A DNA stretch of 63,941 nucleotides, the filler included. It is 8 parts of 8 records of this genome, joined end to end, with 100 filler letters (N's around TTAATTAATTAA, not from the genome) between each part and the next. Parts side by side here need not be neighbours in the genome. Positions count along the whole stretch, not along the records: positions 45,475 to 56,596 come from SRR7504441_11; 7 more parts are not named here. One strand, given 5' to 3'. The translations under genes and the position numbers were made by a program. The notes below the pieces were generated by a model. It ran no database searches. It was not told where the DNA came from and worked only from the letters and a program-made list of their open reading frames with translations. The stretch's first letter is position 1. The number at the start of each line of letters is the position of its first letter. This document shows positions 6,894 to 56,696 of this stretch, in pieces.

Positions 6894-6894
6894 A

Positions 6895-37200: not shown

Positions 37201-38435
37201 ATATCCCATTTTTCTGAGCTCAAGCCTGTTTGCAGGCGCTGCATCTCCCACAGGAAAGTGTGCCCCTGGATACTACTGTGATCCTGGGTCAATTGGCCCG
37301 ATGCAGACCCCATGCCCGGCTGGGCGCTATCGGAATCTCACCGGAGGGATGCATTCTCAAGCCTGTGCCGTCTGCATTGCTGGTCATACTTGCCCAGAAG
37401 CCTCGAGCAGGGGAGAGATATGCCCAGCTGGCCACTATTGTGTTACTGGGGCCCAAACTCCAGAGCCCTGCCCAATAGGATCTTATGGCGCAGCACCTGG
37501 TCTTCGGCGCAGTACTGACTGTACACCGTGCCCTGGGGGGTCTTTCTGCCATGGTCTTGGCCTTACCACACCAACTGGTGGTTGCGATCCAGGCTACTAT
37601 TGCTTGCAGTCAGCATATCAATCAGCACCTATCGGACCACCAACAGGAGGCAAGTGCACCCCTGGAGGAGTGTGCCCTTTCGCCTCATCTTCACCGCAGG
37701 CATGCCCTGCTGGTACATACAACAATTTCAGTGGTGCTGAGCACTCAAACGACTGTCAGGCTTGTCTACCAGGGAAGTTCTGCTCTGGGACAACAGATCC
37801 GCATCCTTCTGGCGACTGTCAACCGGGCTATGTGTGTGCTAGTCGATTTGACAATCTGACAAATAGATTTATCGGTGCCATCAGAGCAGATGAGGTTGCC
37901 ACCCCTCCTGGCACGTTTAGTCTAGCAGGCGCCTACGCGCCAACGCCATGCCCAGCTGGAACTTACCAGAACGTGAGTGCACAAGACCGTTGCCTTCCGA
38001 CTCCAGCTGGATATTTCTCGCCACAAGGTACTTTTGATTTTACACAATATGTTTGTACAGCTGGCAACTACTGCCCTGTTGGTACACAGCATGCACAGCA
38101 ATATCCTTGTCCAAGTGGAACAGCAAGTGATCTGGTGGGACTCCAAAAACAGGAGCAATGTCCAAGCTGTCCACCTGGCTCCTACTGTGAAACAGCTGGC
38201 CTTTTACAGCCCACTGGGTTGTGTCGCAAAGGCTACTACTGGACAAAGGACATGCGCAGTGCGTGATGTGCCCACCAGGTGGTCACCCGCACTTGATTTT
38301 TGTGTGACCCAGTGTGACAGGACACTTTTGTGCTGAGGCTGACATTTGTGCCACTGGAACAAATACCTCCACTGTCAGCTTCAATGGAACAAATGCCTCC
38401 ATCGTCAGCTTTAACCAGACAATAACCTGGCCAGT
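34252..38435 (+). CDS. Internal fragment of a very large Cys-rich repeat protein (GCC2/GCC3, ephrin-receptor-like CPxGxYC repeats)
   Basis: Dozens of CPAG(Y/H/T)(Y/F)C and CxxCPxG units; introns 35566-35690, 36283-36336, 36546-36590, 37155-37235 and ~38279-38320; open at both contig ends; apparent frame break near 38240. Confidence 0.85.
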
Positions 38436-39139: not shown

Positions 39140-42100
39140 ATGAAGTTGGCGAGGTGTGTCGTCCTGGCGATAGTAGCGGCCACGCTGCAATCGGACGGCT
39201 TGCCGGTGGATGACGCCGGTGCGTATCCCTCCGCCGGTGGCTTACGGGGGGACAGGCGCGGTGGGCCGGCTGCTGCTGGCGACGGAGCTGCCGGCCGGCG
39301 AGCAGGCGGCGGGGCTGCGGGTGGATCAGTCCAAGGCCCGGGCGGCGTACGAGCGCTCGCTCGACGAGCTCAAGAAGCTGAACGAGCAAGTCCAGCAGGC
39401 CGAGGAGGCCAAGAAGAGCGCGGCCAAAGAGGTTGCCACCCTGGGCGACAAGCTCAAGGAGGCCGAGAAGGCCGAGCGGGACAAGGACGGGCAGGTCAAG
39501 CAAGAGGAAGCCAACGTGCGCCAACTGGCCGCCCAACTGGCCGAATCGACAAAGGAGCGGGAGGAGCTTCGGGCGGAGCTCTCCAAGATTCGGTTAGCTG
39601 ACCAGCCGGAGCCGGAGGACAGCCAGCCGCTGACCGTGGAGGCCAAGCAGGCCGCCAGCCTGGCCCGCAAGAAGGCGGCCGAGGCGCAGGCCGCGGCCCA
39701 GGAGGCGGCCGACAAGGCGGGCGCGGTGCGGGACGCGGCCAAGAGCGCGGCCAAGAAGGAGGCGAAGGTGCAGGCGGCGCAGGAGGAGCTGGACGTGCGG
39801 CGGAAGGCGGCGCAGGAGGAGCAGCTGCAAGTGCAGGAACTGGAGATGCAGGTCAAGGCTGCCAAGGCCGAGTCCGACAAGCTGGTCGAGAAGGAAGCCA
39901 GCCAGAAGAAGAGCCTGCTTCAGGCCGAGGGCGCGGCAGAGACCAACAAGAAGAGCCTGCAAGATGCCGAGGCCCAGGAGCAAGCCTCGGACCGGCAACT
40001 CAAGCGCAAGGCCGAGCAGGCCGAGCAGCTGGAGCAAAAGGCCCTGGCGGCTGCGAGCGCCATGAAAGAGCGGCAGAGCGCTGCCAACCAGCTGAGCGCG
40101 CAGGTGGCTGATCAGACGGAGCGGGTGCACAAGGTGGAGGCCAAAGCCACCGAGCAGAAGGGGGAGGCTGTCAAAGCCGCAGCCCCGGTGGCGGCCTCCA
40201 ACATCGAGATCGCCGCGGCTGAGAGCAAGCTTGACTCGGTGCGCCAGGATCTCAAGTCTGCCAGGCACGCGCTCGGTGAGATCAAGAGCGAGATTGGCAG
40301 GCTCGAGCTCCAGAAGAGCAAGCTGGCCCAGCAGCTGGACCAGGCCGAGACAAAGCTCCAGATCCAGGAGCGCCAACGGACCGACGCTCAGACCGAGGCC
40401 AGAGTGGCCCAGAGCAAGCTTGCCGATGTGAGCAGCAGGATGGAAGCAAAGAAGAAAGCGGCCACACGGGCGAGTGCAATGGCGGCCTCCAAGCTGCAGA
40501 AGGAGGAGGATTGCGACGAGAGCGTCGCCAAGGCCGTGTCGGCGTATCAGAAGGCCGATGCAGAGAGGCTGGACAGCAAGGTCAAAGCCGAAGGAGAGAA
40601 GCTGGCTGAAACAGCCAGCAAGCAATCCTCGATTGCGGACAAGCTGGCCGCTGCCGAGCAGAAGCTGTCGACCGCAAAGGCCAAAAAGCAGGAGGTTGAC
40701 GCGTCAGTCAGTTCAGCAGCCGATCAGCTCGATCAGGATGCGCAATCAGCAGGCGAGCAAACGGCAGCGGCGGAGGCCCGTGAGCAGCAGGCCAAGGGCC
40801 AGCAGGTGGCAGCCAAGATCGAGGCCGAAGAGGCGCTCAAGGAGGCCGATCGAGTGGACAAGAAGCACCAGAAGGAGGCCAATGAGAGCGCCAAGAAGCT
40901 GGATGCCAAGATTGCGCAGGTCGATCAGCAACTGACAAGAGCCAGGGCTCAGCTGGTGCGGGCCGAGGACCGTTACAGCCAACTGCAGCAGAAGCTGCTC
41001 GGAGTCAAGCAGGCGAGCTCCGGGGCTGAGCAACAGGAAGCCGCAGAGCAGTCCGTGGCAGCCCAGGCCCAGTCAGAGCTGACACAGATGGCGGCCAAGC
41101 GCGACAGCTCCCAGGCGGCGCTGCAGACTCTGCAGGCTGCCGTGGCGGATCCAGCTGAGAAGCAGACGACACAGCTCGAAGCCAAAGCTGAGCAGGCGCT
41201 TGAGAAAGACCAGGCTGCGATCGACCAGTTGGAGGCCAATCTGCAGGCAAACCAGCAAAAGCTTGATTCGGCGCTTGGTGCTGCTCGTGAGGCGACAGCA
41301 GAGAAGGCCAGGATAAATGCAAAAGAGGAGGCGGCTGCTGAGACTGCCAAACAGGTAGCAGAGGAAGCAACAAAGCTGGAGAGGCAGGCTGCAACTGACA
41401 AGGAGGTGGCGGACCTAGAGCTGGTGGCTGCGGCCAAGGAGGGGAAGGCCGCAGCCAGCGACCCAGAAGCGGGCACTGCCAAAAAGGCCAAGGCGGCCGA
41501 GCAGGCTGTGGGGGTCAAACTGCAACAATCTAAGGCCAAGGCCGCAGCGCTGGCAACACAGGAAGAGCAGGCTGTCAAGCAGGCAGCTGAGGCCAAGGCA
41601 GAGCTGAAGCAAGCAGTCAGTCGGGCGGAGCAGGTCAAGCTGCAGGAGCAAAAGGAAGAGCAGGCGCAGCGCAAAATCGAGTCTGAGACATTCCAGGCTC
41701 GGCAACAACGTGACACAGACAAGCAAAAGGCTGGCGAGATGAAGCAGGTTGCAGCGGCCAAGAAGGACGAGGCTGCCAAGGCCGGACGCGAGGCTGCTGC
41801 CGCCAAGCGCGCTGAACAGGAGCTGAAAGACACGGAGGCCGAGGCAGAGCAGAAGAGCCAATCAGGCATGCAAAAGCTGGCCTCTGAGAAGACTAAGCTT
41901 AAAGAGGCAGAGAACAAAGTGGCTGGAGTTGCCGACAAGCTGGGCCGAGTGCAGGATCAACTCCAGGGGCTGAACATGCGCACTCATGAAGCTAAAGGTG
42001 AGGCAGCTGAGGCTCGCACCGAAATGGGAGCCCAGCAAAAGCGTCTGGTTAAGGCCAAAGCCAATTTGAAGGCAGGCAAGCAAGCAGTGGTTCAGCAAGC

Positions 42101-45100
42101 CAAGGAGAAGACGCTAGCAGCCGAGGAAGTCAAAGCAGCCAAGCAGAATTTGGACACGGCGCGTGAAAGGTATACAGATATGCAAACCAAATACCAAAAG
42201 CTGCAGGCACAGAAAAGCAAGGCCACAGAGAAGGTGGCTGACCAACAAATCAAGCTTGATGACATGGTTAGCACTCAGCAGATGGACTCCAAAGATGTGG
42301 AAGCCGCTAAGGATGAGGAACGGCAGGGCAGGGATGCACTTCTGGTAGCAAAAAGTGCCGTCAAGGATGCATCAAATATGGCCAAGAGCAAAGCTGAGAA
42401 AGCGAAGAAAGCCCGTGAGGATGCAAAAGCAGAACAGGTTGCCGCCAAGGGAGCTGTCCGCGCAGCCAAGGAGGCTGCTGAGCAGCAGAAGGAATGCTCT
42501 GAGAGCAAGCAACAGCTTGCACATGCCGAGGCCGCGCAGGAGGCAGCCAGTCTGGAGGTGGAGGCATCTCGATCCGCATACTCCAAGATACAGAATCTAG
42601 CTCAGACCCTCCGACATGAGGCAAACGAGTATGCCGATGCCAAGAATGCGGATGGGCCTGAGTCTCAGGGTGACATTTCCAAACGGGCAGCTAAGGCCAA
42701 CCTCAAGGCTGAGCTTCTGAAGGTCAAAGCCAAGCTTGACGCATCATTGGCTCATGCAGACGCCAACTATGAAACAATGCGGGCCTCAGCAGAGCTTCTC
42801 ACCAGCAAGGCTGAAAGGTACAAAACACATGCAGTCACCGCACGAAACCATGCAGACACTGCAACCAGCGACCTTAAGCATGCTGAGCATGAGGGTCAGC
42901 AGACGATCAAGGAGCTTGAGGCAGCCAAGGCGGAGAGCACCAGGGTGTGCAATGCAGCCAAGGAGCAGGAGATGAAGCTCCCAGATGTGCCAGCCACACC
43001 TAGCTCTGGTGAAATGAAGAAGGACGCCACAGCCACTGCAACTCCAGGGCGCATGCTGCTGCAGGACACGCGCCCAGAGACAGACGCCACTGTTGAGATT
43101 CCTGTGGACGATCAGACCTCAACAGAATCCTCTCTAAGGAAAACGGCAGCTGAGCAAAAATGTGAGATGTCGAAAAAAGCCACCAGTTTGAAGCAAGCCA
43201 TTGTCGATAAACAGAAGACGAAGGTTGCTGAACTGAAGAAGAAGGTTGCTGACCTCCAGACAGTTGCAAAGAAAAAGGAAAGCTGGGTCAAGGAGAATGA
43301 GGAGAAGGCAGCCAAGCAGACCAAGTCAGCTGAGGAGGCCAAGGCAGATGCCATACGACAAGCCCAAGCCAAAGCTAAGGTGGGAGAGAAGCTGGCCAAC
43401 AAGGCTGCAAAAAGAGCACTCGACAAGGGGGCTGCCGCAGATGTGGCAGCCGCAGAGATGACCAAGGAAGAGGTGGACAAACTGCTCGAGCAGAAGTCCC
43501 AACTGGCCCAGGACGAGGCAACCAAAGCTGTTGAACAGGCAAAACAAGATTTTGATGTTGCCATTGCAGCAGCTGAGGAGGCTCGTGGCAGCTGCCAAGG
43601 AGACTCTTCGCAGTGTGACCAGGTACTGCTAGATGCCAAGGCACAGGCAGAGTCAGCAAAGCTCCGGGCAACTGGAGCTGCATTTGATCGACAAGCCGAG
43701 CAGGTTGCTGCTGCTGCAGCTGAGCAAGGTGATGTAGCAAAGACCACTGCACAGATGGATCCACGTGTAGATGCAGCCAAGGAACGGATTGCCACAGCCA
43801 TGGCTGATCTCAAAGGGAAGCAGGAGGCAGTCACGGCCAAGAAAGATCTCCTGGCTGGGAAAGCTTGCAGCGGGGTCTCGGCAGCTGCAATGAAAAGCCA
43901 AGCAGATGAGGCACAAGCCAAAGCGGAGCTGGCCACGCAGAAAGCTTCCTCAGAGGCGACTGCTGTCCAACAGCAGGATCAGGCTCAGGTTGCGGAGGCA
44001 GCAAAGCAGGCAACAGAAGCAGCAGGCCAAGCCAAGGCTAAGCTATCCGCAGTGCAGGCCAAATTGCAGGCAGTGACTAAGAGCACAGACCAGCAGAAGG
44101 CCACACTAGCCGCGGCACAGAAGTTAAAAGACAGCCTCAGCACAGAAGTGGCAAAGGCCTTGAGTGAGATGAAAGGAGCTCAGGCCAAGCTCAAGAAGGC
44201 AACCAAGAGTTACCAAGACGCGCAGATGAAGCTCAGACAGGTGCAGGACAGAGCTGAGGCAGCAAAGGCTGAGGTCACATCAGTCAACACTTTGGTTGAC
44301 CAGGTGCAGAATGACGTTGACACTTCCAAGAGCCTGGTGGAGAAAAACAAGCAGCAGCTGGCTGAACTGAAGTCAAGACAGGCCACGGAGGGCGCCATGG
44401 TCAAGAAACTTACAGATGAAAAGATTGCAGTGCAAGACAAGACAGTTGCTCTCCAAGGAGAAGTGGAAGCGTCAAAGATTGCTGAGGCTGAAGCTCAGAA
44501 GAAAGTTAACAAAATCAAGCAGGACCTGGGCAGCGCAGAAGATGTAGCCAAAGCAGCCACGCAGGCTGCCTCTACTACTAAGAAGTTTGCTGAGCAGGCC
44601 GCTGAGCAGTTTGAGGGCCAAGAAAAGGCTTGGAAAGTCGAGAATAGCAAAGTGCAAGAGCTCAAACAATCTGCAGGCATGGTAGCTCGGCAAATCAAGC
44701 TGGCCAAGGAATCAGCCAAGGAAGCTTCCAGCGCAAATCATGCCAAGGCGCAGGCTTTAAAACAACTGGAGCAGAAAGCAGATGCTTCGCAGCAAGCGGC
44801 AGCTACTGCAAAGAATGAGGCGAACGAGCTAACAAGCGAGGAGAAGAACTTGGCATCAGTGTCTGAGGCGGCGACCAGCATGCGGGAGAAGGCTCTTGCC
44901 GTCAAAGACAAGGCTGCTTACAAGGCCAAGCAGGACAAGCAGAATGCTGACGACGAGGAAGCTGACGCTGCCAAGAAATTGGAAGCTGCAAAAGCTAAAC
45001 AAGGAGAAGCTGCCAAAGCCAAGGGTGTGTTGGATCAGATGAAAGCTGAACAGAAGAAGATAGGAGAGAGGGCCAATGCTGCCAGGGAAGCGGAGAATGT

Positions 45101-45374
45101 CGCCAAGGGCGCAGTGGAGCAATACACAAAGGAGCTTGAAGAGGCTAGATTCGAGAAAGCAGCTGCTCAGGATGCAGTGGACAATGCAAGAGAGCAAGCA
45201 ACAACAGCAGCTAAGGCTGCTGAAGAGGAGAAGTCACGGTTTGCTGAGGCCAAAGCATCTGAGCAAGAGTCTCAGAAGTCATATGATCAAGCCAAAGCGG
45301 CGGCAGCCAAGGCCAACGCCTCGGTAGAGGAACTGCGGGCGTCGAGACAAAGTGCTGTGGAGGCCAGTGACAAC
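39140..45374 (+). CDS. Secreted >2,060-aa Ala/Lys/Glu/Gln-rich coiled-coil protein; 3' truncated
   Basis: Signal peptide MKLARCVVLAIVAATLQSDG joined by a 37-nt intron (39219-39255) to the 6.1-kb ORF; almost entirely helix-forming A/K/E/Q sequence with few Cys. Confidence 0.85.
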
Positions 45375-45474
45375 NNNNNNNNNNNNNNNNNNNNNNNNNN
45401 NNNNNNNNNNNNNNNNNNTTAATTAATTAANNNNNNNNNNNNNNNNNNNNNNNNNNNNNNNNNNNNNNNNNNNN
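45375..45474. other. Artificial contig-joining spacer
   Basis: 44 N + TTAATTAATTAA + 44 N. Confidence 0.98.
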
Positions 45475-45512: not shown

Positions 45513-48500
45513 TCAATACCATCTACGCACATGGTCGTGTTGTGAGGCCATTGAAAACCTATCTGTTGACTCACGACTTTGAGGTTTCACAGTCCAAATG
45601 GTTCTCCAGTCGACAGAGGTCGGATCTTGACGCGCAAATTCAGGCCTGGGAGGAAGCAACCCCAACTCGGCCTTTTCTCGGACAAGCTGACCTGTGGGGC
45701 CGTATGGGCTGTAACGCACAATGTTTTCAAGCAATGCATACCATCGGAAGAGCTGTGAAAGTGGCTTATATACCAAGGGGTACAGAAAGTAAATCAGCGC
45801 TGGGCTCTTAAGATCGCTGCGATGCTTCAAGCATTTGATATGCCAAACAAGCAGCAAGAGCCATTCAAGTGCAATCAGGAAGAAGATCCACTGGAACAAG
45901 TGGATCTGGCCTTCAGGGTAGGTGAACAGATAAACAAAGAAGAAGATTCGGACCCAATCCTGAAAAATGTTGAACACCTGGCCAGCATACCATCAGTCAA
46001 CTGAGTGTGGTCCTAAAATACACAAGAGACCTCGAGCAAGAAGAAGGGCTTGAGGACTAGAGTACCGAGACCTCCACACCACTGGAACAGCAGGATTTTA
46101 ATGAATTTGAGGGTCATCCGATGTGATGTGACGTCCCAACTTTTCACGCGCTGCTGCCATAGTTGAAGAGTGTAGTCTGGCGGAGCAGTGTGCACCAACT
46201 CCCTAGGCTGATGCTTGATCTTGTACCCCTGCTTCATGCCGTGCAGAATCAGGCCCATCTGCAAATCTTCGCCGTTGAATATGCAGTCATGATTCCACAG
46301 GATACTTGACAACAGAATCGGGCGTTTCCACAGCGCAATAGCCCCATGGCAAGCAAGTGTGGTGCCATAAGAACTCTGTAATTGCTTGAAGAAGCCAGCC
46401 AATAGATATTCTAGGTTCTGGAAAGCAACAAGTTGGTTATCGAGATAATGCCGTGCATTCTTTTGCGCGTCTGCAATATTGACCGCTGAAATCCCATAAG
46501 CAATTGCTTGGATATCTGTTTCTGTTTCCATTTGTTTCAAGGGGAATTGGATTTCTCGTGGCAAACAGACATCGTCGTCAATCATCATAATGTATTTGAA
46601 CTTCGGGCACAGGCTTTGCTGCTCAAGCATTGGGATCCACGAGTCAAGCACCCAGAAAAAAGCGATTGTTTTGTTCCCAACTGGCAGGTAGACGTAATTG
46701 ATCCGTTCCAGCGTGGCCGGTTCACCAAGGCTCATCTGCTCCTGGTTCCAATCAGCCCACACATCCTCGACCAGGCGCCACGTCTCGTCGGGTGGGGCCA
46801 ATTCTCGTGCGTTGTCACATATGAAGATGTGGCTTGGCGGAAAGACCTGTAGTGCAGCTTTGAGCGCATCTTGCAAGCCCTGCCGTTTTTCCTTGGTGCA
46901 GTCGCAACGATGACAAGCAATCAAGAGTGCCACCTCGTGTCGGCTGCCACCATGCATGTGAGTCACATCATTTTTGTCCAGATTGTCCAGCATCTGGTGC
47001 CTCGAGCCCCGCGTGGGCCAGTCAATCTCCAGAATTGCCCAAACAAACAGCAAGTTTTCAAGAATCAATGCACCAAAACAGATGAAGTCATAAGCTCCAT
47101 ACTTGCTAAAGTCGCCAAATGGATTCAAATAGAAGACCCATGTACGGAGTCCTGAGTGAGTGTCAGAGGCCGATGGGGCAGGTGGGGCGAGTGAGAGGAA
47201 TAGGTACACCACCGCCATTCCCATCAGAAAGTGGACACAGTAGAAGCCAAGTCCACGGCCAGTGCACCCGAAGAACGTCTTTTCAGAGTCTTGGTGCGCC
47301 TTTTTCTGCTTTTCCCAGTCGTGAAGAGCTTGTGACCATTCCGGTGGGTGCCGGTCTGGTGGCATTGTCCCCATCATCACACCGCTGGTATCGTCACTGA
47401 GCACTTGCCCCTGGTGCTTGGTCTGGATTTCGGCCAGGATTTCTTTCCGCTCCTGCTGCTCTGACAGCTTATCTCGCCGCTTCTTGCGGATGAAAATGAA
47501 CTCTCCAATCACCCAGAGCGTTGCGAAACCGAGACACACAGCAAAGATGGTGCCGGTCTTCTTGTTGAGGTCGACCCGAAGCAGGTGGTCCAGGAAGGTC
47601 TCTTGCTTTCGCTGGAACAGATATTCCTCTGGCACTACCTGAAACTCGAGGCCGTCTCCCTCCCAAAACAGCTGGATGTGCGGGTAGATAGCTGGGCTCA
47701 TGTACTGCACCACGATGTCCACATAATCCCGGCCGTACAGGCAGCGGTCGCACTTGTTGTCATTGGTCGTCGTGTTAAGAATCGGACAATCGTTTAACCA
47801 GATGGTTGGCGACACGTCAATGTTGGAGAGGCGCGGCGACGAAGCTGCAGGAGCGTTGAAGACTTTGTTCATGCTAGTGGCGTCGCAGAACAAACTAGCC
47901 AGGCACCTGGCTTGCGATTCCTTATCTGCGATCCCCTGGCACACTCCACAGGCTAGGCACTGCTGCGGGCACACTTGATGGTCTGCTCTGTCCTTGCTCA
48001 GCGAAACCGGCAGTTGGGTGCACAGCACTGCAGGTGAGGTGGGCGGCCTCGCAATCCAGCGGTCCAGCGTGCCCGAACTTTGCCGTTGGCTGTACGCGTT
48101 GGCCACACGGCCCATCTGGACCATCTCCCCGTCAGACACCACCGTGAAGCTCAGCCGAGTGACGTAATCCGGGAGCCCGCCCACGTGCACCCGGCCGCGC
48201 CACTCCACCCCGAACTTCTTGGAGGTCTTGGCGTTGCCGTAGAACTGGTCCACGCAGGACTCGTAATCGTACTTGCCGAACGGCCAGTACTGGTGGTCTT
48301 GCTTGCCCCAGTGGAAGTCGAGGCGCTGGTCGGTCTGGGTGAAAGTCTCGCACGCCCCCCGGAACCAGTCCAGATTCAGATCCGAGTGGTAGTCGCTCTC
48401 CTTGCCGTATTGGAAGTAGGAGGCCTCGAGCCCGGACCCGTCCCGCACCGCGAACCACCAGTCGAACATCAGGCCCACAAAGGCCCAGACCGCGAACACG

Positions 48501-48577
48501 AGCAGCAAGACCACGCTGTCCCGGGCCACGGCCTTGAGCTGGGCCGGCTCCATCCCGCACAGGATCCGAGCCGCCAT
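45513..48577 (-). CDS. Membrane-integral processive GT2 glycosyltransferase (polysaccharide synthase-like) with N-terminal PA14-like domain, ~1,003 aa
   Basis: IFICDN, GNKT, MMIDDDV (DxD), GAIALW, NGEDL and QQRVKSW (QxxRW variant) motifs; several TM helices; PA14-like GLEASYF...FGVEWRGRV...QLFWEGDGLEFQVVPEEYLF; one intron 45978-46030 joins the two ORFs in frame. Confidence 0.85.
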
Positions 48578-48657
48578 AGCTCAGAGTGCAGCCAGGTGCC
48601 TGCCCTCCACCGAGAGCAAGCCTGCCCAACGGACTTTGGCGGAGGCGCCGTACCGTC
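48578..48657. promoter_or_regulatory. 80-bp divergent (bidirectional) promoter/5' UTR region
   Basis: Lies between head-to-head ATGs at 48577 (-) and 48658 (+). Confidence 0.55.
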
Positions 48658-51600
48658 ATGACGGGAACCGCAGCGGGAGAGCCGGCTCCGGAAGAGGGCA
48701 TAGACGAGGATGCGCTCTCGCGGCAGCTGGCTGTGTATGGGGTGGCCGGTCAAGCCAAGATCAAGCGGTCGCACGTGCTGGTGAGCGGGATGGGCGCGCT
48801 GGGGATCGAAATCGCCAAGAACCTCTGCCTGGCTGGCGTCCGAGCGGTCACCATCCACGACACAACCGACGCCACCCCGGCCGATCTGAACGGCAACTTC
48901 TACCTGTCCCCCGCCGACGTGGGCGCCAACCGGGCCTCGGGCACACTGGCTAAGCTCAAGGTGCTCAATCCGCAGGTGACAGTGGCGGCCCGCACCGACG
49001 AGCTGGCCGAGCTGGCCGGCGTGACGGTGCTGGTGGCCACCGAGATGCGGCTGGAGCAGCAGCTGAAGCTGAACGCGGTCTGTCGGGCCCAGGGGATCAG
49101 GTTCATCGCAGCGGAGGTGCGCGGGGTGTTCGGGAGCTGCTTCGTGGACTTTGGGGACGAGTTCGTGACCAGCGACCCCAACGGCATGCCCGTGATCCAG
49201 TGCATGCTGTCCAACATCAGCCGGGGCAGCCCGTGCCAACTGACCACCGTGGAGGAGGGGGTGGACCCAAAGACCGGCAAGATGCAGTATAAGCGCCACG
49301 AGCTGTATGACGGCGACACAATAACTCTCTCTGGTGTCAACGGCCTCCGGGCGGACGAGGCCGATGAGCAGTCGCCGATCGAGGCGGTCGAGCTGGCCGT
49401 CAAGGTGGTCGACCCGCACAACCTGACGGTCGATTTCGACACGTCGGAGCTCTCCGCTTACATTGGCGGCGCATCGATCACCGAGGTGAAGCAGCCCGTC
49501 CCGATCGGTTTCCAGCCGCTCCAAGCCAACGTGAGCGCGCCGGTGTTCATGATGGCCAACTCGCCGGATGAGGACAAGCAGTGGAACACGGCCTACTCGC
49601 AGGCGGCGCTCCACCTTGGGTTCCGGGCGCTCCACCAGTTTATTGAATCCGAGGGCCGGCTGCCCGGGCCGTGGTGCCAGGCAGACGCCGACGCCGTGGT
49701 CCAGATCGCCAGGGAGATCAACGGGGAGGACGGGGAGGTGGATCTGGCCGGCGGGCTGGCCGCGCGTCCGATTGAGCTGCTCGCGTTGACTAGCAGCGGG
49801 GTGCTCGCGCCACTGAGTGCGGTGCTGGGCGGGTATGTGGCCCAGGAGGCGCTCAAAGCGGTGATGGACAAGTACACCCCGCTCCAGCAGTACGTGTACA
49901 TGGCCTGCGAGGAGGTGGTGCCGGTGGATCTGGCCCAGCCGAGCCTCGAGTACGACCCGGTCGAGTTCCAACCGCACGATGGACAGACCGACGCGCAAGT
50001 GGTGTGCATCGGCAGGGATACCTGCGCCAAGCTGGCAGAGCTCAATCTGTTCATGATCGGGGCGGGCGCGATTGGGTGCGAGCTGATCAAGAATCTGGCC
50101 ATGCTCCGGTGCTGCACCCGCGGTAAGCTGCTGGTGACCGACCCGGACTCGATCGAGAAATCAAATTTAAACAGACAATTCCTGTTCACCTACAACGACA
50201 TCAGCCAGAACAAGTCGACCACCGCGATCAAGGCGGTGCAGGCCATGTACCCCCAGATGCAGGCCGAGTCTCTCACCGACCTGGTGGCGCCCTCCACAGA
50301 GGACAAGTTCCATGCAGACTTCTGGGATGCCCAGGACTGCTTCCTGAACGCGCTGGACAACGTCAAGGCCAGGGCGTACGTGGACCAGCGCTGTGCGGCG
50401 GCGCATAAGCCGCTGATTGACTCGGGCACCACGGGAACCAAGGGGCACACGCAGGTGGTAGTGCCTCTGCTCACAGAGACCTGGGGCGACCAAAAGGACC
50501 CGGATGTTGAGATGGGCATCCCGGAGTGCACCGTCAAGTTCTGGCCGTCAGTGATCGCGCACACCATCTCCTGGGCCAAGCAGCAGCTCGAGCTTCGGTT
50601 TTTCAGCGCGCCGGTCGAGATCAACAAGCTGCTCTCTGGTGACTTCAGCGAGAATGTGGCCAACTCAAAGGGCAAGGACGCGGCCAATCTGCTCAAGACA
50701 CTCAAGATGCTCAAAAAGCTGCTCGTAAACCGGCCGGCTGACTATGCCGACTGCTGCAGACTGGCGCGGACCAAGTTTGAGAAGCAGTTCAACCACCGGA
50801 TTCGACAGCTACTGATTGCGCACCCGGCGGACAAAATGGAAACGTTCAAGGATCAGCAGGGCAACGAATGCCAGAAACCATTCTGGTCGCTGCCTCGCCG
50901 GCTGCCAACTGCAATTGAGTTTGACCCGGCCGACTCGGCGCACGTGGACTATGTGATTGCGTATGCCATGCTGCTCTATCGACTGTGGAAGATGCCAGAG
51001 CCCGCTGAATGGTCTCACGAGGACAAGCAGGCGCAAGCCAGAGCGGTCGTGGCTGAAATGCAGCCTGAGCCTTTCGATGACAACAAGGTCGACCTGAACA
51101 AATTCAAGGAGGGCGTGTCTGCCAACGATTTGAAGAAAGCTGACAAAGCCAAGTTTGATGGCAGCCAGATGGCGGATCTGGCAGCCTTGACCCAGGAGCT
51201 GGCCGAGATGCTGGCTGAGGGTGGCGATGGACTTCAGTTCCTTGAAGACGAGTTTGAGAAGGACCACGATAGCAACTACCACATTGCATTCATCACAGCG
51301 GCTTCCAACATGCGGGCCCGGTGCTACTCTATCAAGGAGGAGACATTTTTGCAGACAAAGCTGATTGCGGGCAAGATTATTCCTGCAATTGCCACGACCA
51401 CCACTGTGGTGTCGGCAGCTGTAATCATCGAATTGATTAAGATCGTCCAGCAGCGGCCGCTAGAATCATTCAAGACCCTCTATTTGGATCTGGCCCTGCC
51501 AGTTTTGACTCATTACACCCCAAAGCAGCCGATTCAGAAGATGGTGCTTGCCCGCCCTTCGAGCTCCAAAGACGACTCCGCCTGGCAAGAAGTCTCAGGC

Positions 51601-54600
51601 TGCCTGCCGTACACTGCCTGGGACAGATGGGAAGTGCGCGAAGGCGACCTGACCATCAGGGCTCTGATTGAGCACTTCAAAGCCTTCTACGGCCTGCTGG
51701 TGTGGTCTGTCTTCTGGCATGGCCAGGCGGTGTTGGAAGGGCTTGGAGAGTCAGAGGTCTTCACTGGTGCGACTAAGAAGGCTGCCCTGAAGGAGCTGGC
51801 AGCAGTGATTGACCGCAAACTGACTGAGGTGCTGCAACAGGCAGCAGATGAAGACGCAGAAGGCGCAGACGCTGAGGATGCACAGGGGCCATTTGAAGAG
51901 TCAGAGCCCCTTGAGCTACTCATCACCTTCCGAACACCAAGCGGCGATGTGGTCAAAGAGACGCCGAAAGTGGTCGTTCACCTATCCGAGGCTGCGCGCG
52001 TCGAGGGCTTCTCCCAGCGTGCGGTGCTGCTTGAGAAACGGTTGGCGCTCCAAGATGAAGTGGTGGCCCAATTGAAAGAGGCCCTCGCGGCCAAGCCCGA
52101 GGTCCCAGTATGGAATCCAGTCCAGATTGTACTGTATGAGGGTGAGCACCCGACGCCTGCTTCAATTGCGCTCGAAGGCATGCTGTGTGAGCTGGGGATG
52201 GCGTACAGCAAGGAGCCTCAGTCGAAGGATGGCCCCGTGCTTGACCAGGATGGGCTGACCTTCTGGGACATGAAATCGGCCATCACACACATTGCCAATG
52301 TCAGCGCGATACCGTCATGGTATCCTCAGGAGGTAGAGGCGCGCACAAGGTGTCATGAGGCGCTGTTCTTGCATGAGAAGTGGCTCACGCCATACCTGAT
52401 TGAAACCATACTTGCTCCGTCGATGGGCTGGCGGGATGAGGTATCTGATGACGAACGATCCAAAGCGTGTGCAGAGTTGAGACAAGTTGCCTGGCCGCGC
52501 ATCCAATCGCTGCTCGAGCGCAGTGGCGGACCGCTGCTTGGTGGCGCCTACCCTTCCATGGGCGACCTGGTTGTGGGTATAGCCCTCACAGCAGCCCAAC
52601 TTCGGCTTCCAACCCTCGATATCTGGACCTCCCAGGTCTCCCAGTACACAAAAACTCTCAAGGTCAAGCTGCGGCAATGGGCAGAGTACATGGCACGGCA
52701 GGAGGTTGTGTTTGGAGGCTACTGCCTGCAAGCTCAGTTGCCGGAAGGGCAAGGGACTGTGGAGGATACTGACCAAGCTACTGTCGGGCAGCTGCTGGAC
52801 AAGCTGGCAGAGCTGAGCGGGCTTGCCGTGGATGACATGGCAATCAAGTGCGGAGGGGGCATCCTTGGGTGCAGGGCTGTGGTGCTGTTGGGGTACCCAG
52901 ACTGCAAACTCGAACCAGGCTATGACTGCGATCTCAAGCTGATTGATCTGGGGGTGCATCATAATGATGTGATCCTTGTGCGCTCAATTGCATCGCTTGA
53001 AGCCGACGATGGCGCCAACACCTGTGGTCCTTGTGGCCCACCACTACTCACTCGAACCACCACAGGTAACCGGGCGGTTTGCCCTGTCTGCTCAAAAGTA
53101 TTTGAGATGCATAACATCCAAGGCCACATCGAAATGCACCTTGAAGGCTCTGAGGATGGCCAAAGTGACGCGCCGGCAGGTCAGCTAGTTCGTACCTACA
53201 CGCGACACATCCTGGAAGAAGTACCTCAGATCACAAAGATCGATATGGACGAGGCTGGGCACGTCTTTTTCCCTTTTAAAGACGACGAGCCACGCGACGA
53301 GGCTCACATCGAGCAGGAGATTGCTTATCTGGTCGAGGGCCTGCCAAAGAAGAATCTGTCGGGCGGCGCCATGTTTGTAGCAAGGGACGTCAAGCGGCAG
53401 TACTATCTCAAGTGCATGGTCATCGGCCCGGAGGAGACGCCGTATGAATCCGGCTGCTTTGAGTTTGACATTGCGTTGCCTCCGAACTACCCCAAGTCTC
53501 CGCCCAAAGTACAACTTGTCACTACGGGCCGGGGTGCAGTCCGATTCAACGCGAATATGTATGCCAATGGCAAGGTGTGCTTATCACTGCTGGGCACCCA
53601 CTCCGGTGGGCTGCCGTGGGACCCCAAATCGTCCACTCTGCTCCAGGTAGTTGAGTCAATTGCGTGGTGCATCATGATTGGGAACGAAGTGCCTCGGCAT
53701 CCTTGGTTCAATGAGCCAGGGTACGCTGACGGGTATGAGCAGACAGGTAAGCTGACCGAATTGGCACAGGCACTGTCAGCCACCTACAACCGGGAGATCA
53801 GGAGGTGCACTATCAAGATTTGCATGATTGACCAAATTAAGTACCCACCTCTAGGATTTGAGGATGCAATCCGCGAGCACTTTTCGGCCAAAGGCGATGC
53901 AATCCTGGCCAAGGTGCGTGAGTGGGAAGCTGAAGATACTGAGGACGATTTCCAAGATATCTACCAACTCCGCCAGGAGGCTATCGTAGCATATAGCTCG
54001 GAACAGCTGCAAGGGGTTCTGAACAAGATGGTTTCTCTTCGCGAGAAGATGCGAGATGATTCCGACATACCAGAGGAGCCAGCAGTGCAGAACGTAACGG
54101 TGGAGGAAGTATCAGAGGAGGACTACATCACACTCAGCTGGACTCACCCTAAGGAGAAATTGGGCATCAAGTTTCACAATAATTCTTACATGATCTATAC
54201 CGTCAGCAAGAATGTTGGTAAGAAGAAATTCATGCTCCAGCGTCAGTTCAAGTGGCTCTGCCAGATCAACGGCCGAAGCGTCTTTGAAGCGCCTCTGAAA
54301 GAGAACATGAACGAAGTTTACAAGAACACACGACCGTTGGAGCTCACTTTCACAACTGAGGAAGAATACCTCAGGATCCGGCCAGCGGATTATCAAGAAG
54401 TGAGCGCTCCAGTCGAGGACGACACAATCGAAGCCGAGTTTGATAAGGACATCGCCAAGGCCCAGGAGAGACTTGCCCAGATGAAGGAGGCTGAGACCCA
54501 TTCGCTCGAGCAGGAAGCCGAAACATTTATCACCAGGGTAGACAAGCTGAGAGCGTTGTTAGAAGAAGACATCGGTGACCTGAACGACGAAGAAGTATAC

Positions 54601-56287
54601 AGCCCAGAGCCGGAGGCCCCTGAAGACCGAGATCCTGAATCGGAACCAATTTTCCTGTGGTACTTTTCGACCGTGGACTGCGAGGCGGCACCAGAGAGCG
54701 AGCAGGTGCAAGAGTGGGGAGAGTTCGACATGGACTCGAGCGCTTACCTTGAAGAGATGTTCGCTGAGGACTCAGCATCACCTGGATTTGAGATTGACAT
54801 CGGCGGACAGACCTATGTGATCGATTTGGCCGGTATGACCCAGACAAATACGGAATCTGGCACCAAGAGGTGGATCAAGCGTGAGCAGAAGCCAGTGTTG
54901 GACAAGGAGGCCGAGGAGGCGGCCCTGCAAGAGAGCCTGGCCACGCTGTTGGCTGTGACTGGTGGGCAGTACCCAGAGGATGTGCTGCTGGCGCTGCTCA
55001 AGCACCACCCAGCAAAGGACAACTTGGATGCAGTGATGAATGCTCTGTTTGCACCCGACTTCAACGGGATGCTGTGGCTGCAGAAGAGCTCGCAGGCAGA
55101 TTCAGTTGCTCAGAGCCTAGCGGGGTTGCCAAGGAGTCAAGTGGTGGAGGAATGGGTCTGCTGGTGTGGCGCCAACCAGCCTGTAGCTACGAACGTTTGC
55201 TCGATCTGCCAGCAGCCTCGGCAGCCCACTGCAAAGATTGTCCCCCGGCGGGCAACTACGGCAGAGGTTCTCAACAGGCTATCTGACAAGGTGACGCCGT
55301 ACAAAGAGGCGGTGGAAGAAGCAAGACAGCTGTGCTTTCTGCTGCAGGCACCAGCAGTGGTGTGGGAGTACGTGCCACCCGGCCAGAACAAGTGGCACAG
55401 CTTTGAAAGAGACGATATTGCAAAGATCGAGCGATGGTGCCAGCAGGGGGGCGAGCCTAACATCGAGGTCAAGCTACCTGGGCAGGGCAAGTACATTGTG
55501 GACATGGAGCAGCTCCGGATGCAGAAGTTTAATCCAGGGATGGGCTTCCAGGGTGGCAACACAATCCAACCGGTGACCCTGCCCCCATGCACACCTGCTG
55601 ACATTTGTGCAGGTCCGCCGGCGGGAAATGGGCTCGCGCATGACTGAGCTCTTCGAAAAGGCCCAGTTGAACGAGTCGGAGGCTTCGGCTCTGCTGGCTC
55701 AGCTTCAGACCAAGCATGACGCAATCAAGAAAAAGATTACGCAACATGCGGAAGAAGGCATAGATGACCAAAAGGAGGACGGGGAGTGCGCTATAATGTG
55801 GCCTCAGTGCGCAGAGTGCACGTTCATCAATGAGATTTCCGCAACTCACTGCGAGATGTGCAACGCCCCTGCGCCTCCTGCGATAGTGAACCCATTCGCT
55901 GAGGTCCTTGAGAAGACTTGGACCTGCGAGAAATGCAATTCCAAGAACCCTGACAACGCAACCGGCTGTATGTACTGTGGCATGCTTAACCCCTGGCTAC
56001 AAGGGCTCGGAAATTCACAGTATCTTGGAGGCAATTTCTCCATGTCCTATCAAGCTGGATATGGATTTGGTGGCAAGCAAGGCCCCAAGGGCAAAGGAAT
56101 CGATAAGCAGAAAGTTTTTGATACTGTTGTGGGCAGCCAGGGGCCTTTCATTACACGCACTATCACCACCACGGCTCTCAGAGAGGAGCTCGAAGATCTG
56201 ATCACGAGGCTGAAGAGCGGCGAGAACGTCACCTGTAGCACCGATGATCGGGCTCCTGTGGTCAATCCGCGCTATGATGCTCACTAG
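48658..56287 (+). CDS. UBA6-like E1 / GST-like / Ub-like / UBZ / BIRC6-UBE2Z-type E2 / PDZ-like / WWE / UBA-CUE-like / RanBP2-NZF fusion protein, ~2,529 aa
   Basis: One open frame 48658-55572 plus a 40-nt intron (55573-55612, branch-like GCTGAC) to the last exon. E1: SRQL, GAGAIGCE, DPDSIEKSNLNRQFLF, ALDN, catalytic IPECTVK (Cys 50527-50529), FEKD, IAGKIIPAIATTT, UFD to ~51985. E2: GPEETPYESGCFEFD...YPKSPPKV...TTG...RFNANMYANGKVCLSLLGT (Cys 53578-53580)...PWFNEPGY. Confidence 0.92.
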
Positions 56288-56596
56288 ACACCCCTTATTT
56301 GGGAACTTTATATTACAAGTAATATTAAACTCATCAAACGTATATTAAGGTACATGAATTGTACGCAACACATGACATTGAGTCTCTGTCTGGCTAGACT
56401 AGTGGAGGTGGGTCAGGCTGCCTGACAGTCATAATTTATTATGACAGCCATAATTGTCTCGCGGCAGCTAGTTTTTTTTGGCCAGCAGCTAAGCATTAAT
56501 TAGCGTTACGGTAGCTTCCATCTAAGCTTAAATTTGAATCTTTGTTACTCGTATTACACCCATTAGTTGATTAGTGTTGTGAATTAAACATAACAT

Positions 56597-56696
56597 NNNN
56601 NNNNNNNNNNNNNNNNNNNNNNNNNNNNNNNNNNNNNNNNTTAATTAATTAANNNNNNNNNNNNNNNNNNNNNNNNNNNNNNNNNNNNNNNNNNNN
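56597..56696. other. Artificial contig-joining spacer
   Basis: 44 N + TTAATTAATTAA + 44 N. Confidence 0.98.

What the first reader, a model, noticed from the sequence alone, without database searches (positions are those of the whole stretch)
48658..56287. Single-polypeptide ubiquitination cascade: complete E1 fused to an E2 plus reader domains
Seen: one uninterrupted reading frame (no spacer, stop or required intron between the enzymes) carries a full two-half E1 with ATP loop GAGAIG, catalytic Cys (50527) and UFD, then a UBC domain with catalytic Cys (53578), plus GST-like, Ub-like, UBZ, PDZ-like, two WWE, UBA/CUE-like and three RanBP2/NZF modules. Established: canonical eukaryotic ubiquitin E1s (UBA1, UBA6) are stand-alone; E1-E2 fusions are best known from bacterial CBASS Cap2; BIRC6 and UBE2O-type UBC proteins act as E2/E3 hybrids without RING or HECT. 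Inference: a dedicated enzyme that activates, carries and delivers ubiquitin or a UBL on its own, insulated from the general E1/E2 pool, possibly for stress or antiviral signalling. I do not know a described eukaryotic protein with this architecture, but novelty needs a search.
Basis: partly seen in the sequence, partly recalled or inferred. Interest (0 to 1): 0.92.

Follow-up and report, generated by a model that had tools for sequence, protein, structure and literature searches.

The report
Ubiquitin E1 fused to BIRC6-type E2
A marine protist gene encodes, in one 2,529-residue protein, a complete ubiquitin-activating enzyme joined to a BIRC6-like ubiquitin-conjugating domain plus ADP-ribose and ubiquitin reader modules, a natural fusion that has relatives in databases but that I could not find described in print.

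Summary
The core observation holds. One gene (48658-56287, + strand) has a 2,305-codon first exon, a 40-nt GT..AG intron (55573-55612) that RNA contigs of two studies splice out, and a 224-codon last exon.

Domains confirmed:
- A full UBA1/UBA6-type E1: both adenylation halves, FCCH, 4HB, SCCH with Cys at 50527, and UFD.
- A GST-like domain, a ubiquitin-like domain and a C2H2 zinc finger.
- A BIRC6-type UBC with Cys at 53578.
- Two WWE domains and two RanBP2/NZF fingers.

Not supported: the PDZ-like module, the UBA/CUE-like module and the third NZF.

The architecture is not unique. The same E1-to-E2 order and linker occur in transcripts of other protists (Incisomonas marina and two unnamed) and on two metagenome contigs. 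A larger family (47 proteins; ciliates, Picozoa) has the reverse order, E2 then E1. E1 and E2 trees and an AU test (p 5e-6) indicate two independent fusions, both pairing a non-UBA1 E1 with a BIRC6-like UBC.

Most likely it is a self-charging ubiquitylation enzyme aimed by WWE and NZF readers. That mechanism is inferred. I found no paper describing eukaryotic E1-E2 fusions. I rate it a new variant of a known kind.

The parts
48658..55572 (+). Exon 1 of the E1-E2 gene (2,305 codons from the ATG)
   Evidence: ORF 48586-55647. The N-terminus is collinear with relatives P0002/P0338. GC3 falls smoothly along it, with no step at the E1/E2 junction.
55573..55612 (+). 40-nt GT..AG spliceosomal intron, inside WWE2
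   Evidence: Sequence. RNA contigs X1 record 3 and X9 record 23 skip it, and DNA contig X2 record 13 reads through it. Relative P0188 reads the same spliced junction.
55613..56287 (+). Exon 2 (224 codons plus stop): end of WWE2, NZF, RanBP2 finger and tail
   Evidence: It is homologous to the C-termini of P0338 (36% identity), P0003, P0349 and P0350. RNA contigs of X1 cover 55226-55851 and 55891-56290, with a gap between.
48658..49998 (+). E1 first (inactive-type) adenylation half with FCCH (49285-49491) and 4HB (49492-49722)
   Evidence: Pfam ThiF, E1_FCCH, E1_4HB. Alignment to human UBA1.
49999..51495 (+). E1 active adenylation half with SCCH (50545-51360). ATP loop GAGAIG at 50059-50076; catalytic Cys codon at 50527-50529
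   Evidence: Pfam. The motifs GAGAIGCE, NLNRQFLF, NALDNV.AR and IPeCT align with human UBA1. Coordinates.
51619..51990 (+). Ubiquitin-fold domain (UFD) with a loop insertion
   Evidence: Pfam E1_UFD is partial. It aligns over its full length with UBA1 and UBA6 UFDs, and the insertion is shared with P0338.
52123..52716 (+). GST-like domain
   Evidence: Profile against PDB: 41 of 41 hits are GSTs, best 3.4e-5. AF2 model pLDDT is about 90. Foldseek gives 359 matches at E<=0.001; all 40 rows printed are GSTs, TM up to 0.77.
52720..53007 (+). Ubiquitin-like (beta-grasp) domain
   Evidence: OTU1_UBXL E 5.1e-5, and the same weak hit in P0003 and P0190. The model shows a beta-beta-alpha-beta-beta...beta pattern at pLDDT 82-94.
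53080..53139 (+).
   Evidence: PDB hits are C2H2 fingers. TAX1BP1 UBZ scores E 0.02 and RAP80 E 2. The model has low confidence here.
53308..53934 (+). BIRC6-type UBC domain with C-terminal helical extension; catalytic Cys codon at 53578-53580; triad N-A-N
   Evidence: PDB: BIRC6 UBC 5.6e-42, UBE2Z 3.5e-25, UBE2O 1e-23. Pfam UQ_con. NAN is seen in all six aligned rows that cover this segment.
54064..54420 (+).
   Evidence: No Pfam or PDB support. The model has pLDDT about 30.
54427..54564 (+). Long acidic helix (coiled-coil-like)
   Evidence: Model helix 159-204. Composition.
54652..54888 (+). WWE domain 1
   Evidence: Pfam 1.7e-13. RNF146 WWE scores E 0.0043, with W, Y, Q and R positions kept. 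The Foldseek top rows (ranks 1-22 as printed) are all WWE domains, TM up to 0.82.
54898..55098 (+).
   Evidence: Model helices at pLDDT about 80. Conserved in L002-L004 and L007. There is no UBA or CUE hit; the best is a Ku70 SAP-like match at E 0.12.
55141..55251 (+).
   Evidence: No Pfam hit. The motif is kept in P0003 and P0188 but not in P0002.
55357..55630 (+). WWE domain 2, interrupted by the intron
   Evidence: Pfam 5.1e-7. It is similar to WWE1 (E 4e-5).
55796..55870 (+). NZF zinc finger with the T-F ... M pattern of Npl4
   Evidence: Pfam Zn_ribbon_RanBP. It aligns to the Npl4 NZF 1nj3 (E 4.3e-4), and to HOIL-1L and TAB2 NZFs. That T-F/Phi is the ubiquitin-binding signature is recalled knowledge.
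55907..55984 (+). Second RanBP2-type zinc finger (no T-F)
   Evidence: Second Pfam stretch. Weak RanBP2 and Nup153 hits.

Best explanation
This is a real, transcribed nuclear gene of a marine protist. It encodes a single-chain ubiquitylation enzyme. An E1 of the UBA1/UBA6 type is followed, after a structured spacer of about 450 residues (coiled coil, GST-like domain, ubiquitin-like domain, C2H2 finger), by a BIRC6-type UBC domain. After the UBC come a tail of two WWE domains, a helical bundle and NZF/RanBP2 fingers.

Proposed mechanism:
1. The active adenylation half adenylates ubiquitin and passes it to the SCCH cysteine (model residue 624).
2. The tethered UBC docks on the protein's own UFD/SCCH, as BIRC6's UBC docks on UBA6, and takes ubiquitin onto its cysteine (model residue 1641). 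This could happen within one chain or between chains of an oligomer.
3. Like BIRC6 and UBE2O, the UBC then modifies substrates without a RING or HECT partner. The WWE domains (ADP-ribose or poly-ADP-ribose) and the NZF (ubiquitin) choose the targets.

Shown here: the gene structure, splicing, domain content, conservation of the catalytic motifs, and membership in a small protist family with the same order.

Inferred: every enzymatic step, ubiquitin as the cargo, transfer in cis, E3-independence, and ligand binding by the readers.
For: Gene and expression:
- The ORF is continuous.
- The intron is spliced in RNA contigs of two studies and retained in a DNA contig.
- GC3 has no compositional step at the junction.

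E1:
- All Pfam modules are present.
- 580 bits to human UBA1 and 567 bits to UBA6, with ATP-loop, NRQ, Asp and Cys motifs aligned.
- The crossover loop keeps the acidic D-P of UBA1. The review PMC12355090 ties an acidic pocket there to Ub Arg72 (passages).
- The UFD is full length.

E2:
- Best match is the BIRC6 UBC at 5.6e-42. The alignment runs from before the UBC core through the C-terminal extension, with only a few short gaps after the catalytic Cys.
- It has a loop of the same length as BIRC6 residues 4649-4653, counted from Cys4666.

Conservation:
- 51 of 51 fusion proteins keep the E1 Cys and ATP loop.
- 50 of 51 keep the E2 Cys.

Same architecture elsewhere:
- P0002/P0338, P0003, fragment P0035 and Incisomonas P0350.
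- Contigs L001 and L004 are collinear on one strand.

Recurrent pairing: E1 tree, E2 tree and AU test show that two separate lineages fused a non-UBA1 E1 to a BIRC6-like UBC.

Readers:
- WWE fold.
- NZF like that of Npl4.

Known biology: UBA6-BIRC6 is a dedicated, very tight E1-E2 pair (abstract of PMC12999496; passages of PMC13623948).
Against: - There is no biochemical evidence of any kind.
- No RNA contig bridges the E1-E2 linker (51900-53400). Only DNA contigs lie there, so a single mRNA for this very locus rests on the open frame and on relatives' transcripts.
- The UBC triad is N-A-N, not H-P-N or BIRC6's N-P-N. The effect on catalysis is unknown.
- The E1 belongs to neither the UBA1 nor the UBA6 clade, so its cargo is not certain.
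- Its sister E1s are stand-alone (P0068-P0070, including Telonema). The module can therefore work unfused and may also serve free E2s.
- A relative (P0196/P0349) is called as UBL+UBC+tail without E1, though its upstream DNA could not be read.
Confidence: 0.68

Rival explanations
1. The E1 module is not insulated. It is this organism's second general ubiquitin E1 (a UBA6-like role) and charges free E2s as well. The fused UBC is merely its privileged client.
For: - A full UFD, the E2-recruiting domain, is kept.
- The sister clade consists of stand-alone E1s.
- UBA6 serves several E2s while BIRC6 has priority (abstract of PMC12999496).
Against: - The tethered UBC would be at very high local concentration and could occupy the UFD most of the time.
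- No genome is held, so I cannot tell whether the organism has other E1s.
Confidence: 0.3
2. The cargo is not ubiquitin but a lineage-specific ubiquitin-like protein, as FAT10 is for UBA6.
For: - The E1 forms its own clade outside UBA1 and UBA6.
- UBA6 is known to have dual specificity (passages of PMC12355090).
Against: - The crossover loop keeps the acidic D-P aligned with UBA1.
- The fused E2 is of the ubiquitin-using BIRC6 type.
- An NZF with the Npl4 pattern sits in the tail.
- No UBL gene lies next to it.
Confidence: 0.12
3. One of the two enzymes is a pseudo-enzyme. For example, the N-A-N UBC cannot discharge and acts only as a regulatory or docking module on the E1.
For: - The Pro of the H/N-P-N triad is replaced by Ala in all six aligned rows that cover this segment.
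- One Paramecium paralogue of the reverse-order family has lost the E2 Cys (P0063).
Against: - The Cys and the triad Asn are kept in this clade.
- 50 of 51 fusion proteins keep the E2 Cys and 51 of 51 keep the E1 Cys.
- Such conservation over deep divergence (37-49% identity) argues for catalysis.
Confidence: 0.08
4. Artefact: a chimeric assembly or a read-through of two neighbouring genes.
For: No RNA contig spans 51900-53400 at this locus.
Against: - An open frame of 2,353 codons would not survive a chance join.
- The linker itself is a conserved, well-folded GST-like plus UBL unit.
- DNA contigs of another run cover 51678-52669.
- The same order is found in independent transcript assemblies and contigs.
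- The GC3 profile is smooth.
Confidence: 0.02

Closest known systems
Metazoan UBA6-BIRC6 pair (separate proteins)
   Same: - A non-UBA1, full-length E1 works with a BIRC6-type UBC that carries the extended C-terminal helices and the five-residue loop before the Cys.
- BIRC6 acts as an E2/E3 hybrid.
- The UFD is the main docking site (abstract of PMC12999496).
   Different: - Here the two are covalently joined by a GST-like/UBL/zinc-finger spacer.
- The E1 is not in the UBA6 clade.
- There is no BIR domain and no giant BIRC6 body.
- The triad is N-A-N.
- The tail carries WWE and NZF readers.
Reverse-order UBC-E1 fusion proteins of ciliates, Picozoa and unnamed protists (database entries named 'hypothetical' or 'UBC core domain-containing protein')
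   Same: A BIRC6-like UBC and a complete E1 in one chain, with catalytic residues kept.
   Different: - The order is UBC then E1, about 100 residues apart.
- The GST-like/UBL spacer and tail segments found no match in them by BLASTP, and Pfam found no WWE in the four members scanned (P0004, P0034, P0013, P0341).
- Both the E1 and the E2 fall in different clades.
- A common clade of all fused E1s is rejected.
Bacterial CBASS Cap2 (E1-E2 fusion)
   Same: Activation and conjugation domains are in one polypeptide (listings and passages).
   Different: - By recall, Cap2 has the E2 first and a single bacterial ThiF-type E1 domain that works as a homodimer. It conjugates a CD-NTase, not ubiquitin, and sits in a defence operon.
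- The window's protein has a eukaryotic two-half E1 with FCCH, SCCH and UFD.
- The gene has a spliceosomal intron.
- No Pfam hit to a CD-NTase family was found among the neighbouring ORFs.
UBE2O (E2/E3 hybrid)
   Same: The same UBC subfamily (E 1e-23). It is a large multidomain E3-independent E2 (abstract listing of PMC12818219).
   Different: UBE2O has no E1 module, is a more distant UBC match than BIRC6, and has different substrate-binding domains.
WWE-bearing ubiquitin ligases (RNF146, TRIP12, HUWE1, Deltex)
   Same: A WWE fold with the signature W/Y/Q/R positions. It couples ADP-ribose recognition to ubiquitylation.
   Different: Those are RING or HECT E3s. Here the WWE domains are attached directly to an E1-E2 unit.

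Membership tests
Canonical single-chain ubiquitin E1 (UBA1/UBA6 type) | Two ThiF-type adenylation halves in one chain, with FCCH, 4HB and SCCH inserts | tested here: met
   Pfam ThiF x2, E1_FCCH, E1_4HB, UBA_E1_SCCH. 580 bits to human UBA1 over residues 10-955.
Canonical single-chain ubiquitin E1 (UBA1/UBA6 type) | ATP-binding and catalytic motifs (GxGxxG, NRQ, Asp, catalytic Cys in SCCH) | tested here: met
   All are aligned and identical in class to human UBA1. They are kept in 51 of 51 fusion proteins.
Canonical single-chain ubiquitin E1 (UBA1/UBA6 type) | C-terminal ubiquitin-fold domain | tested here: met
   Full-length alignment with UBA1 and UBA6 UFDs, with a loop insertion. The Pfam match is partial only.
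Canonical single-chain ubiquitin E1 (UBA1/UBA6 type) | Orthology to the UBA1 or the UBA6 clade | tested here: not met
   In the tree of 52 E1 domains, the window groups with P0002 and P0003 and with stand-alone P0068-P0070 (support 100). This is outside the UBA1 (96) and UBA6 (96) clades. The relation among these clades is unresolved.
Canonical single-chain ubiquitin E1 (UBA1/UBA6 type) | ATP-dependent ubiquitin adenylation and thioester formation | not testable with these tools
   This needs biochemistry.
BIRC6-type UBC (E2/E3 hybrid E2s) | UBC fold with catalytic Cys and triad Asn, plus the BIRC6-like loop and C-terminal extension | tested here: met
   BIRC6 UBC scores 5.6e-42 over 209 residues. 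The segment before the Cys aligns without gaps; a few short gaps follow after it. The loop position was counted from Cys4666. The triad is N-A-N rather than N-P-N.
BIRC6-type UBC (E2/E3 hybrid E2s) | BIR repeat and the giant BIRC6 body (orthology to BIRC6 itself) | tested here: not met
   No BIR or BIRC6 Pfam family was found. In the E2 tree the window's clade is apart from the metazoan giants.
BIRC6-type UBC (E2/E3 hybrid E2s) | E3-independent substrate ubiquitylation | not testable with these tools
   This needs biochemistry.
Protist E1-then-UBC fusion family (P0002/P0338, P0003, Incisomonas P0350, L001, L004) | Same domain order, with shared linker and tail | tested here: met
   Segment BLAST and tblastn show collinear matches of E1, UFD, (GST/UBL), pre-E2, UBC, helical region and last exon.
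Protist E1-then-UBC fusion family (P0002/P0338, P0003, Incisomonas P0350, L001, L004) | E1 and E2 parts each cluster with the family | tested here: met
   E1: window+P0002 99, +P0003 97. E2: clade of 6 rows, 99.
Reverse-order UBC-E1 fusions (ciliates, Picozoa and others) | UBC N-terminal of the E1; common descent of the fused unit | tested here: not met
   The order is opposite. The clades are separate in both trees. The AU test rejects one clade of all fused E1s (delta lnL 124.6, p 5.5e-6; the group was named after the tree was seen).
Bacterial Cap2 (CBASS) | E2 then a single bacterial E1 domain, encoded beside a CD-NTase in a defence operon | tested here: not met
   The window has a eukaryotic two-half E1 in the opposite order and a spliced intron. 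Pfam found no CD-NTase family among the neighbouring ORFs. The Cap2 features are recalled.
WWE domain (ADP-ribose/PAR readers) | WWE fold with conserved ligand-contact positions | tested here: met
   Pfam. RNF146 alignment. The Foldseek top rows (ranks 1-22 as printed) are all WWE domains. Which positions touch iso-ADP-ribose is recalled; binding itself was not tested.
PDZ and UBA/CUE domains | Sequence or fold match | tested here: inconclusive
   No sequence match. The PDZ-like stretch is modelled at pLDDT about 30. The helical bundle is modelled confidently, but no UBA or CUE entry is among the 46 Foldseek rows printed.

The most novel reading that the evidence does not exclude
A fully self-contained eukaryotic ubiquitylation machine. 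One polypeptide activates ubiquitin, hands it in cis to its own BIRC6-type UBC, and deposits it without any E3 on ADP-ribosylated or already ubiquitylated targets chosen by its WWE and NZF modules. Its independent re-invention in two protist lineages would show that the dedicated 'second E1 - BIRC6-type E2' axis is ancient in eukaryotes rather than a metazoan speciality.
Probability: 0.3. Interest if true: 0.8.

Novelty: new variant of a known kind. Interest (0 to 1): 0.62.

Why it matters
Textbooks treat eukaryotic ubiquitin E1 and E2 as separate proteins. The 2025 E1 review I searched mentions E1-E2 fusion only for bacterial Cap2 (passages).

What the fusions suggest:
- Natural fusions act as evidence of functional coupling between the fused parts.
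- Here a non-UBA1 E1 has been joined to a BIRC6-like UBC at least twice, in opposite orders.
- That points to a dedicated pairing far older and wider than the metazoan UBA6-BIRC6 axis that structural papers of 2025-2026 are dissecting.

What the protein offers:
- A compact natural scaffold for asking how E1-to-E2 transfer works when the E2 cannot leave.
- A test of whether transfer is in cis or in trans.
- A test of whether such a unit is orthogonal to the cellular pool.
- The WWE and NZF tail suggests a direct link from ADP-ribosylation to ubiquitylation without an E3.

If the enzymology proves ordinary, the value is mainly evolutionary and as a tool.

Tried and rejected
- **Complex prediction**, UFD (residues 95-240 of A3's first row) with the UBC region (A6): score 0.00, no verdict. 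It says nothing either way.
- **RNA cover of the E1-E2 linker:** none among the four runs laid. This shows only that nothing was found, not that the region is untranscribed.
- **Run X5:** its contigs mostly run on unlike the window, so they come from other organisms.
- **Metagenome scan with the GST-like profile:** nothing. A single-protein scan then gave 16 loci. Only L001 and L004 show E1 upstream. L002, L003, L005-L007, L012, L013, L015 and L016 are short contigs. L008-L011 and L014, with 10 kb upstream, show no E1.
- **Viral contigs:** no relatives of either fusion type. The method is pattern-based and reaches only close relatives.
- **PDZ and UBA/CUE:** not supported.
- **UBZ:** only a weak TAX1BP1 match.
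- **Papers:** Burroughs et al. 2008 and 2009 (E2 fold; E1-like superfamily) are not held, and they may mention such fusions. The main text of Grau-Bove 2015 does not, but its supplementary architecture tables could not be seen.
- **Taxon of the window:** not resolved.

Full report
**1. The gene**

Table-11 and table-1 ORF lists show a 2,353-codon frame at 48586-55647 on the + strand, and a second frame at 55607-56287. The first ATG is at 48658. Between the two frames lies a 40-nt stretch beginning GT and ending AG (55573-55612). Removing it joins the frames.

Contigs of four public runs were laid on 48000-56600:
- RNA run X1 record 3 has 133 + 51 letters across the joint.
- Run X9 record 23 has 28 + 111 letters across it. 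X9 is of another study and is labelled RNA by guess.
- Both skip exactly these 40 bases.
- A DNA contig of X2 (record 13, 55503-55649) reads through them.

The intron is therefore real, and the 3' part of the gene is transcribed. X1 also covers 53814-53971, 55226-55851 and 55891-56290.

No RNA contig crosses 51900-53400. Only DNA contigs of X2 (51678-52669) lie there. Runs with any share of the sequence are marine or seawater metagenomes and metatranscriptomes, all with small shares. No genome is held. The taxon remains 'marine protist'.

**2. The E1**

Pfam finds ThiF twice (3e-72), E1_FCCH, E1_4HB and UBA_E1_SCCH (1.7e-55), plus a partial E1_UFD.

Against solved structures:

| Structure | E-value | Bits |
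|---|---|---|
| Human UBA1 | 5.8e-173 | 580 |
| UBA6 | 9.1e-169 | 567 |
| Yeast Uba1 | about 5e-166 | |
| UBA7 | about 1e-138 | |

In the alignment to human UBA1, the ATP loop (GAGAIGCE), the NLNRQFLF and NALDNV.AR motifs and the Cys-bearing IP.CT motif are all in register. The crossover loop keeps an acidic D-P. A review places the Arg72 pocket of ubiquitin in that loop (passages).

An alignment with 13 other E1s shows the UFD over its whole length. A loop insertion there is shared with the closest relative.

**3. The E2**

The best solved match is the UBC domain of BIRC6 (5.6e-42), then UBE2Z (3.5e-25) and UBE2O (about 1e-23). Ordinary E2s score about 1e-9.

The match runs from before the UBC core through BIRC6's C-terminal helices. 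The Cys codon is at 53578. The triad reads N-A-N (BIRC6 has N-P-N), and this is seen in all six aligned rows that cover this segment.

Counting back from BIRC6 Cys4666, the 'insertion loop' 4649-4653 is reported to clash with UBA1's gate helix and to fit UBA6's (passages of PMC13623948). It aligns without a gap to GRGAV in the window.

**4. Other modules**

| Module | Result |
|---|---|
| GST-like | A five-sequence profile hits only GSTs in PDB (41 of 41, best 3.4e-5). The AF2 model of residues 1085-1600 (10-row alignment, mean pLDDT 66) is at about 90 over this domain. Foldseek gives 359 matches at E<=0.001, and all 40 rows printed are GSTs. |
| Ubiquitin-like | The next 95 residues model as beta-beta-alpha-beta-beta...beta at pLDDT 82-94. 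They give a weak OTU1_UBXL hit, repeated in two relatives. |
| Zinc finger | An ordinary C2H2 by sequence. The UBZ reading rests on a TAX1BP1 hit at E 0.02. |
| WWE1, WWE2 | Solid by Pfam, by alignment to RNF146 and by fold. The Foldseek top rows (ranks 1-22 as printed) are all WWE domains. |
| Zn fingers in last exon | Two RanBP-type fingers. The first aligns with the Npl4, HOIL-1L and TAB2 NZFs and has T-F and a later M as Npl4 does. That this marks ubiquitin binding is recalled. |
| PDZ-like | No support. The stretch models at pLDDT about 30. |
| UBA/CUE-like | A conserved, confidently modelled small helical bundle, with no UBA or CUE match. |
| Third NZF | A CxC...CxxC motif without Pfam support. 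|

**5. Relatives**

A full-length search gave 66 proteins. Of these, 49 carry both ThiF and UQ_con. Segment BLAST and motif mapping split them by domain order.

E1 then UBC, with the shared linker and tail:
- P0002, and its longer isoform P0338 found.
- P0003.
- Fragment P0035.
- Incisomonas marina P0350.

UBC then E1:
- 47 proteins.
- They include Tetrahymena, Paramecium and Pseudocohnilembus entries and a Picozoa protein.

Two metagenome contigs (L001, L004) carry E1 end, UFD, UBC and helical region collinearly on one strand. The exhaustive representative search found further fragments of the window's family at 50-90% identity. It also found 711 proteins with E<=1e-30, nearly all sharing only the UBC.

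All 51 fusion proteins examined keep the E1 Cys and ATP loop. 50 of 51 keep the E2 Cys; Paramecium P0063 does not.

**6. Trees**

*E1 domains.* I chose 52 rows from the 186 stored hits: the window, 2 E1-then-UBC, 24 of the 47 reverse-order proteins, the 8 nearest stand-alone E1s, 14 named canonical E1s and 3 others. The method was IQ-TREE quick with PMSF.
- The window groups with P0002 (99) and P0003 (97).
- The sister group is stand-alone E1s P0068-P0070 (the six rows together score 100). One of them is Telonema subtile.
- Reverse-order fusions form their own clade (100).
- UBA6 (96) and UBA1 (96) are separate clades.
- The relations among these four groups are unresolved, and the tree is unrooted.

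*E2 domains.* 73 rows: the window, 2 E1-then-UBC, P0196, P0203, 25 reverse-order, 7 giants and every third of the remaining hits.
- The window's clade has support 99.
- The reverse-order clade has support 98.
- These are apart from each other and from the metazoan giants.

*AU test.* It rejects a tree holding all 27 fused E1s together (delta lnL 124.6, p 5.5e-6). The group was named after the tree was seen.

The simplest reading is two independent fusions. A single old fusion followed by fission and reordering is less parsimonious but not excluded.

**7. Is it an artefact?**

Unlikely, for five reasons:
- The frame is open for 7 kb.
- The spacer is itself conserved and folded.
- Independent assemblies show the same order.
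- A DNA contig of another run lies inside the spacer.
- GC3 declines smoothly from 0.88 to about 0.61 within the E1 half and is flat across the junction. Two neighbouring genes show the same 5'-to-3' gradient.

**8. Mechanism**

By homology, ubiquitin is adenylated and thioesterified on the E1. It is then passed to the tethered UBC docked on the retained UFD/SCCH, and from there to substrates without a RING or HECT partner, as for BIRC6 and UBE2O. The WWE and NZF modules would do the aiming.

All of this is inference. The GST-like domain might mediate oligomerisation; that is speculation and was not tested. Whether the E1 also serves free E2s, and whether the cargo is ubiquitin alone, remain open.

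**9. Literature**

Searches for E1-E2 fusion wording returned only bacterial Cap2 and related work, or irrelevant papers. Searches combining E1, E2, ciliates, Tetrahymena, fusion or domain architecture gave nothing relevant.

| Paper | What I looked at | Result |
|---|---|---|
| UBA6-BIRC6 structural papers | Passages found by term search; one abstract | No natural fusion mentioned; taxon analysis is metazoan |
| 2025 E1 review | Passages | Fusion named only for Cap2 |
| Grau-Bove 2015 | Main-text passages | Does not mention it; supplements not seen |
| Burroughs et al. 2008, 2009 | Not held | May bear on priority |

**10. Verdict**

The finding is real and largely as described. It is a member of a small, unnamed protist family. 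Together with a larger reverse-order family, it shows that E1 - BIRC6-type E2 fusion is recurrent in eukaryotes. I rate it a new variant of a known kind, of moderate-to-high interest.

Noticed in passing
window 48577-48658: The E1-E2 gene and the minus-strand glycosyltransferase-2 gene (46013-48577) start only 80 bp apart, head to head. That is a very compact bidirectional arrangement for a eukaryote.
   Followed up: partly
window 48658-55572; 39177-45419; 46016-48577 (minus): There is a strong 5'-to-3' fall of third-position GC within genes (about 0.88-0.90 down to 0.55-0.61) in three genes. The long ORF 6850-16737 lacks it.
   Followed up: partly
window 56598-56640 and 56654-56696: Two runs of N lie about 310 bases after the stop codon, in an AT-rich stretch. 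They are either gaps or masked sequence.
   Followed up: no
window 5642-26331 and 34200-38266: A cluster of very long, mostly intron-poor ORFs carries extracellular-type modules: TSP1, FN3, WSC, F5/8 type C, CPW_WPC and ephrin-receptor-like cysteine repeats. It includes a 3,296-codon frame.
   Followed up: no
proteins P0013, P0341 (relatives, not in the window): Giant reverse-order fusions of 4,000-4,600 residues carry a ZZ finger, or ankyrin repeats plus an APC10/DOC-like domain, ahead of the UBC-E1 unit.
   Followed up: partly
protein P0063 (Paramecium tetraurelia): One paralogue of the reverse-order family has lost the E2 catalytic Cys while keeping the E1 motifs.
   Followed up: no
proteins P0055, P0177 (Penicillium, Aspergillus entries): These fungal database entries join a UBA1-type E1 to GST domains (precomputed Pfam). 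This is a curious parallel to the GST-like domain after the window's UFD. They could be gene-model mergers.
   Followed up: no
proteins P0003, P0188: Their N-termini begin with a low-complexity, adapter-like stretch that the two otherwise unrelated N-termini share. These records are probably 5'-truncated assemblies rather than true starts. That the stretch derives from a sequencing adapter is recalled.
   Followed up: no
proteins P0071-P0075 (unnamed): Stand-alone E1s from transcriptomes and metagenomes group with metazoan UBA6 (support 96). This hints that a UBA6-like second E1 is wider than Metazoa.
   Followed up: no
proteins P0196/P0349: A 1,072-residue relative is called as UBL + UBC + helical region + tail without an E1. 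It is either an unfused form or a gene call that misses upstream exons. Its contig could not be read.
   Followed up: no
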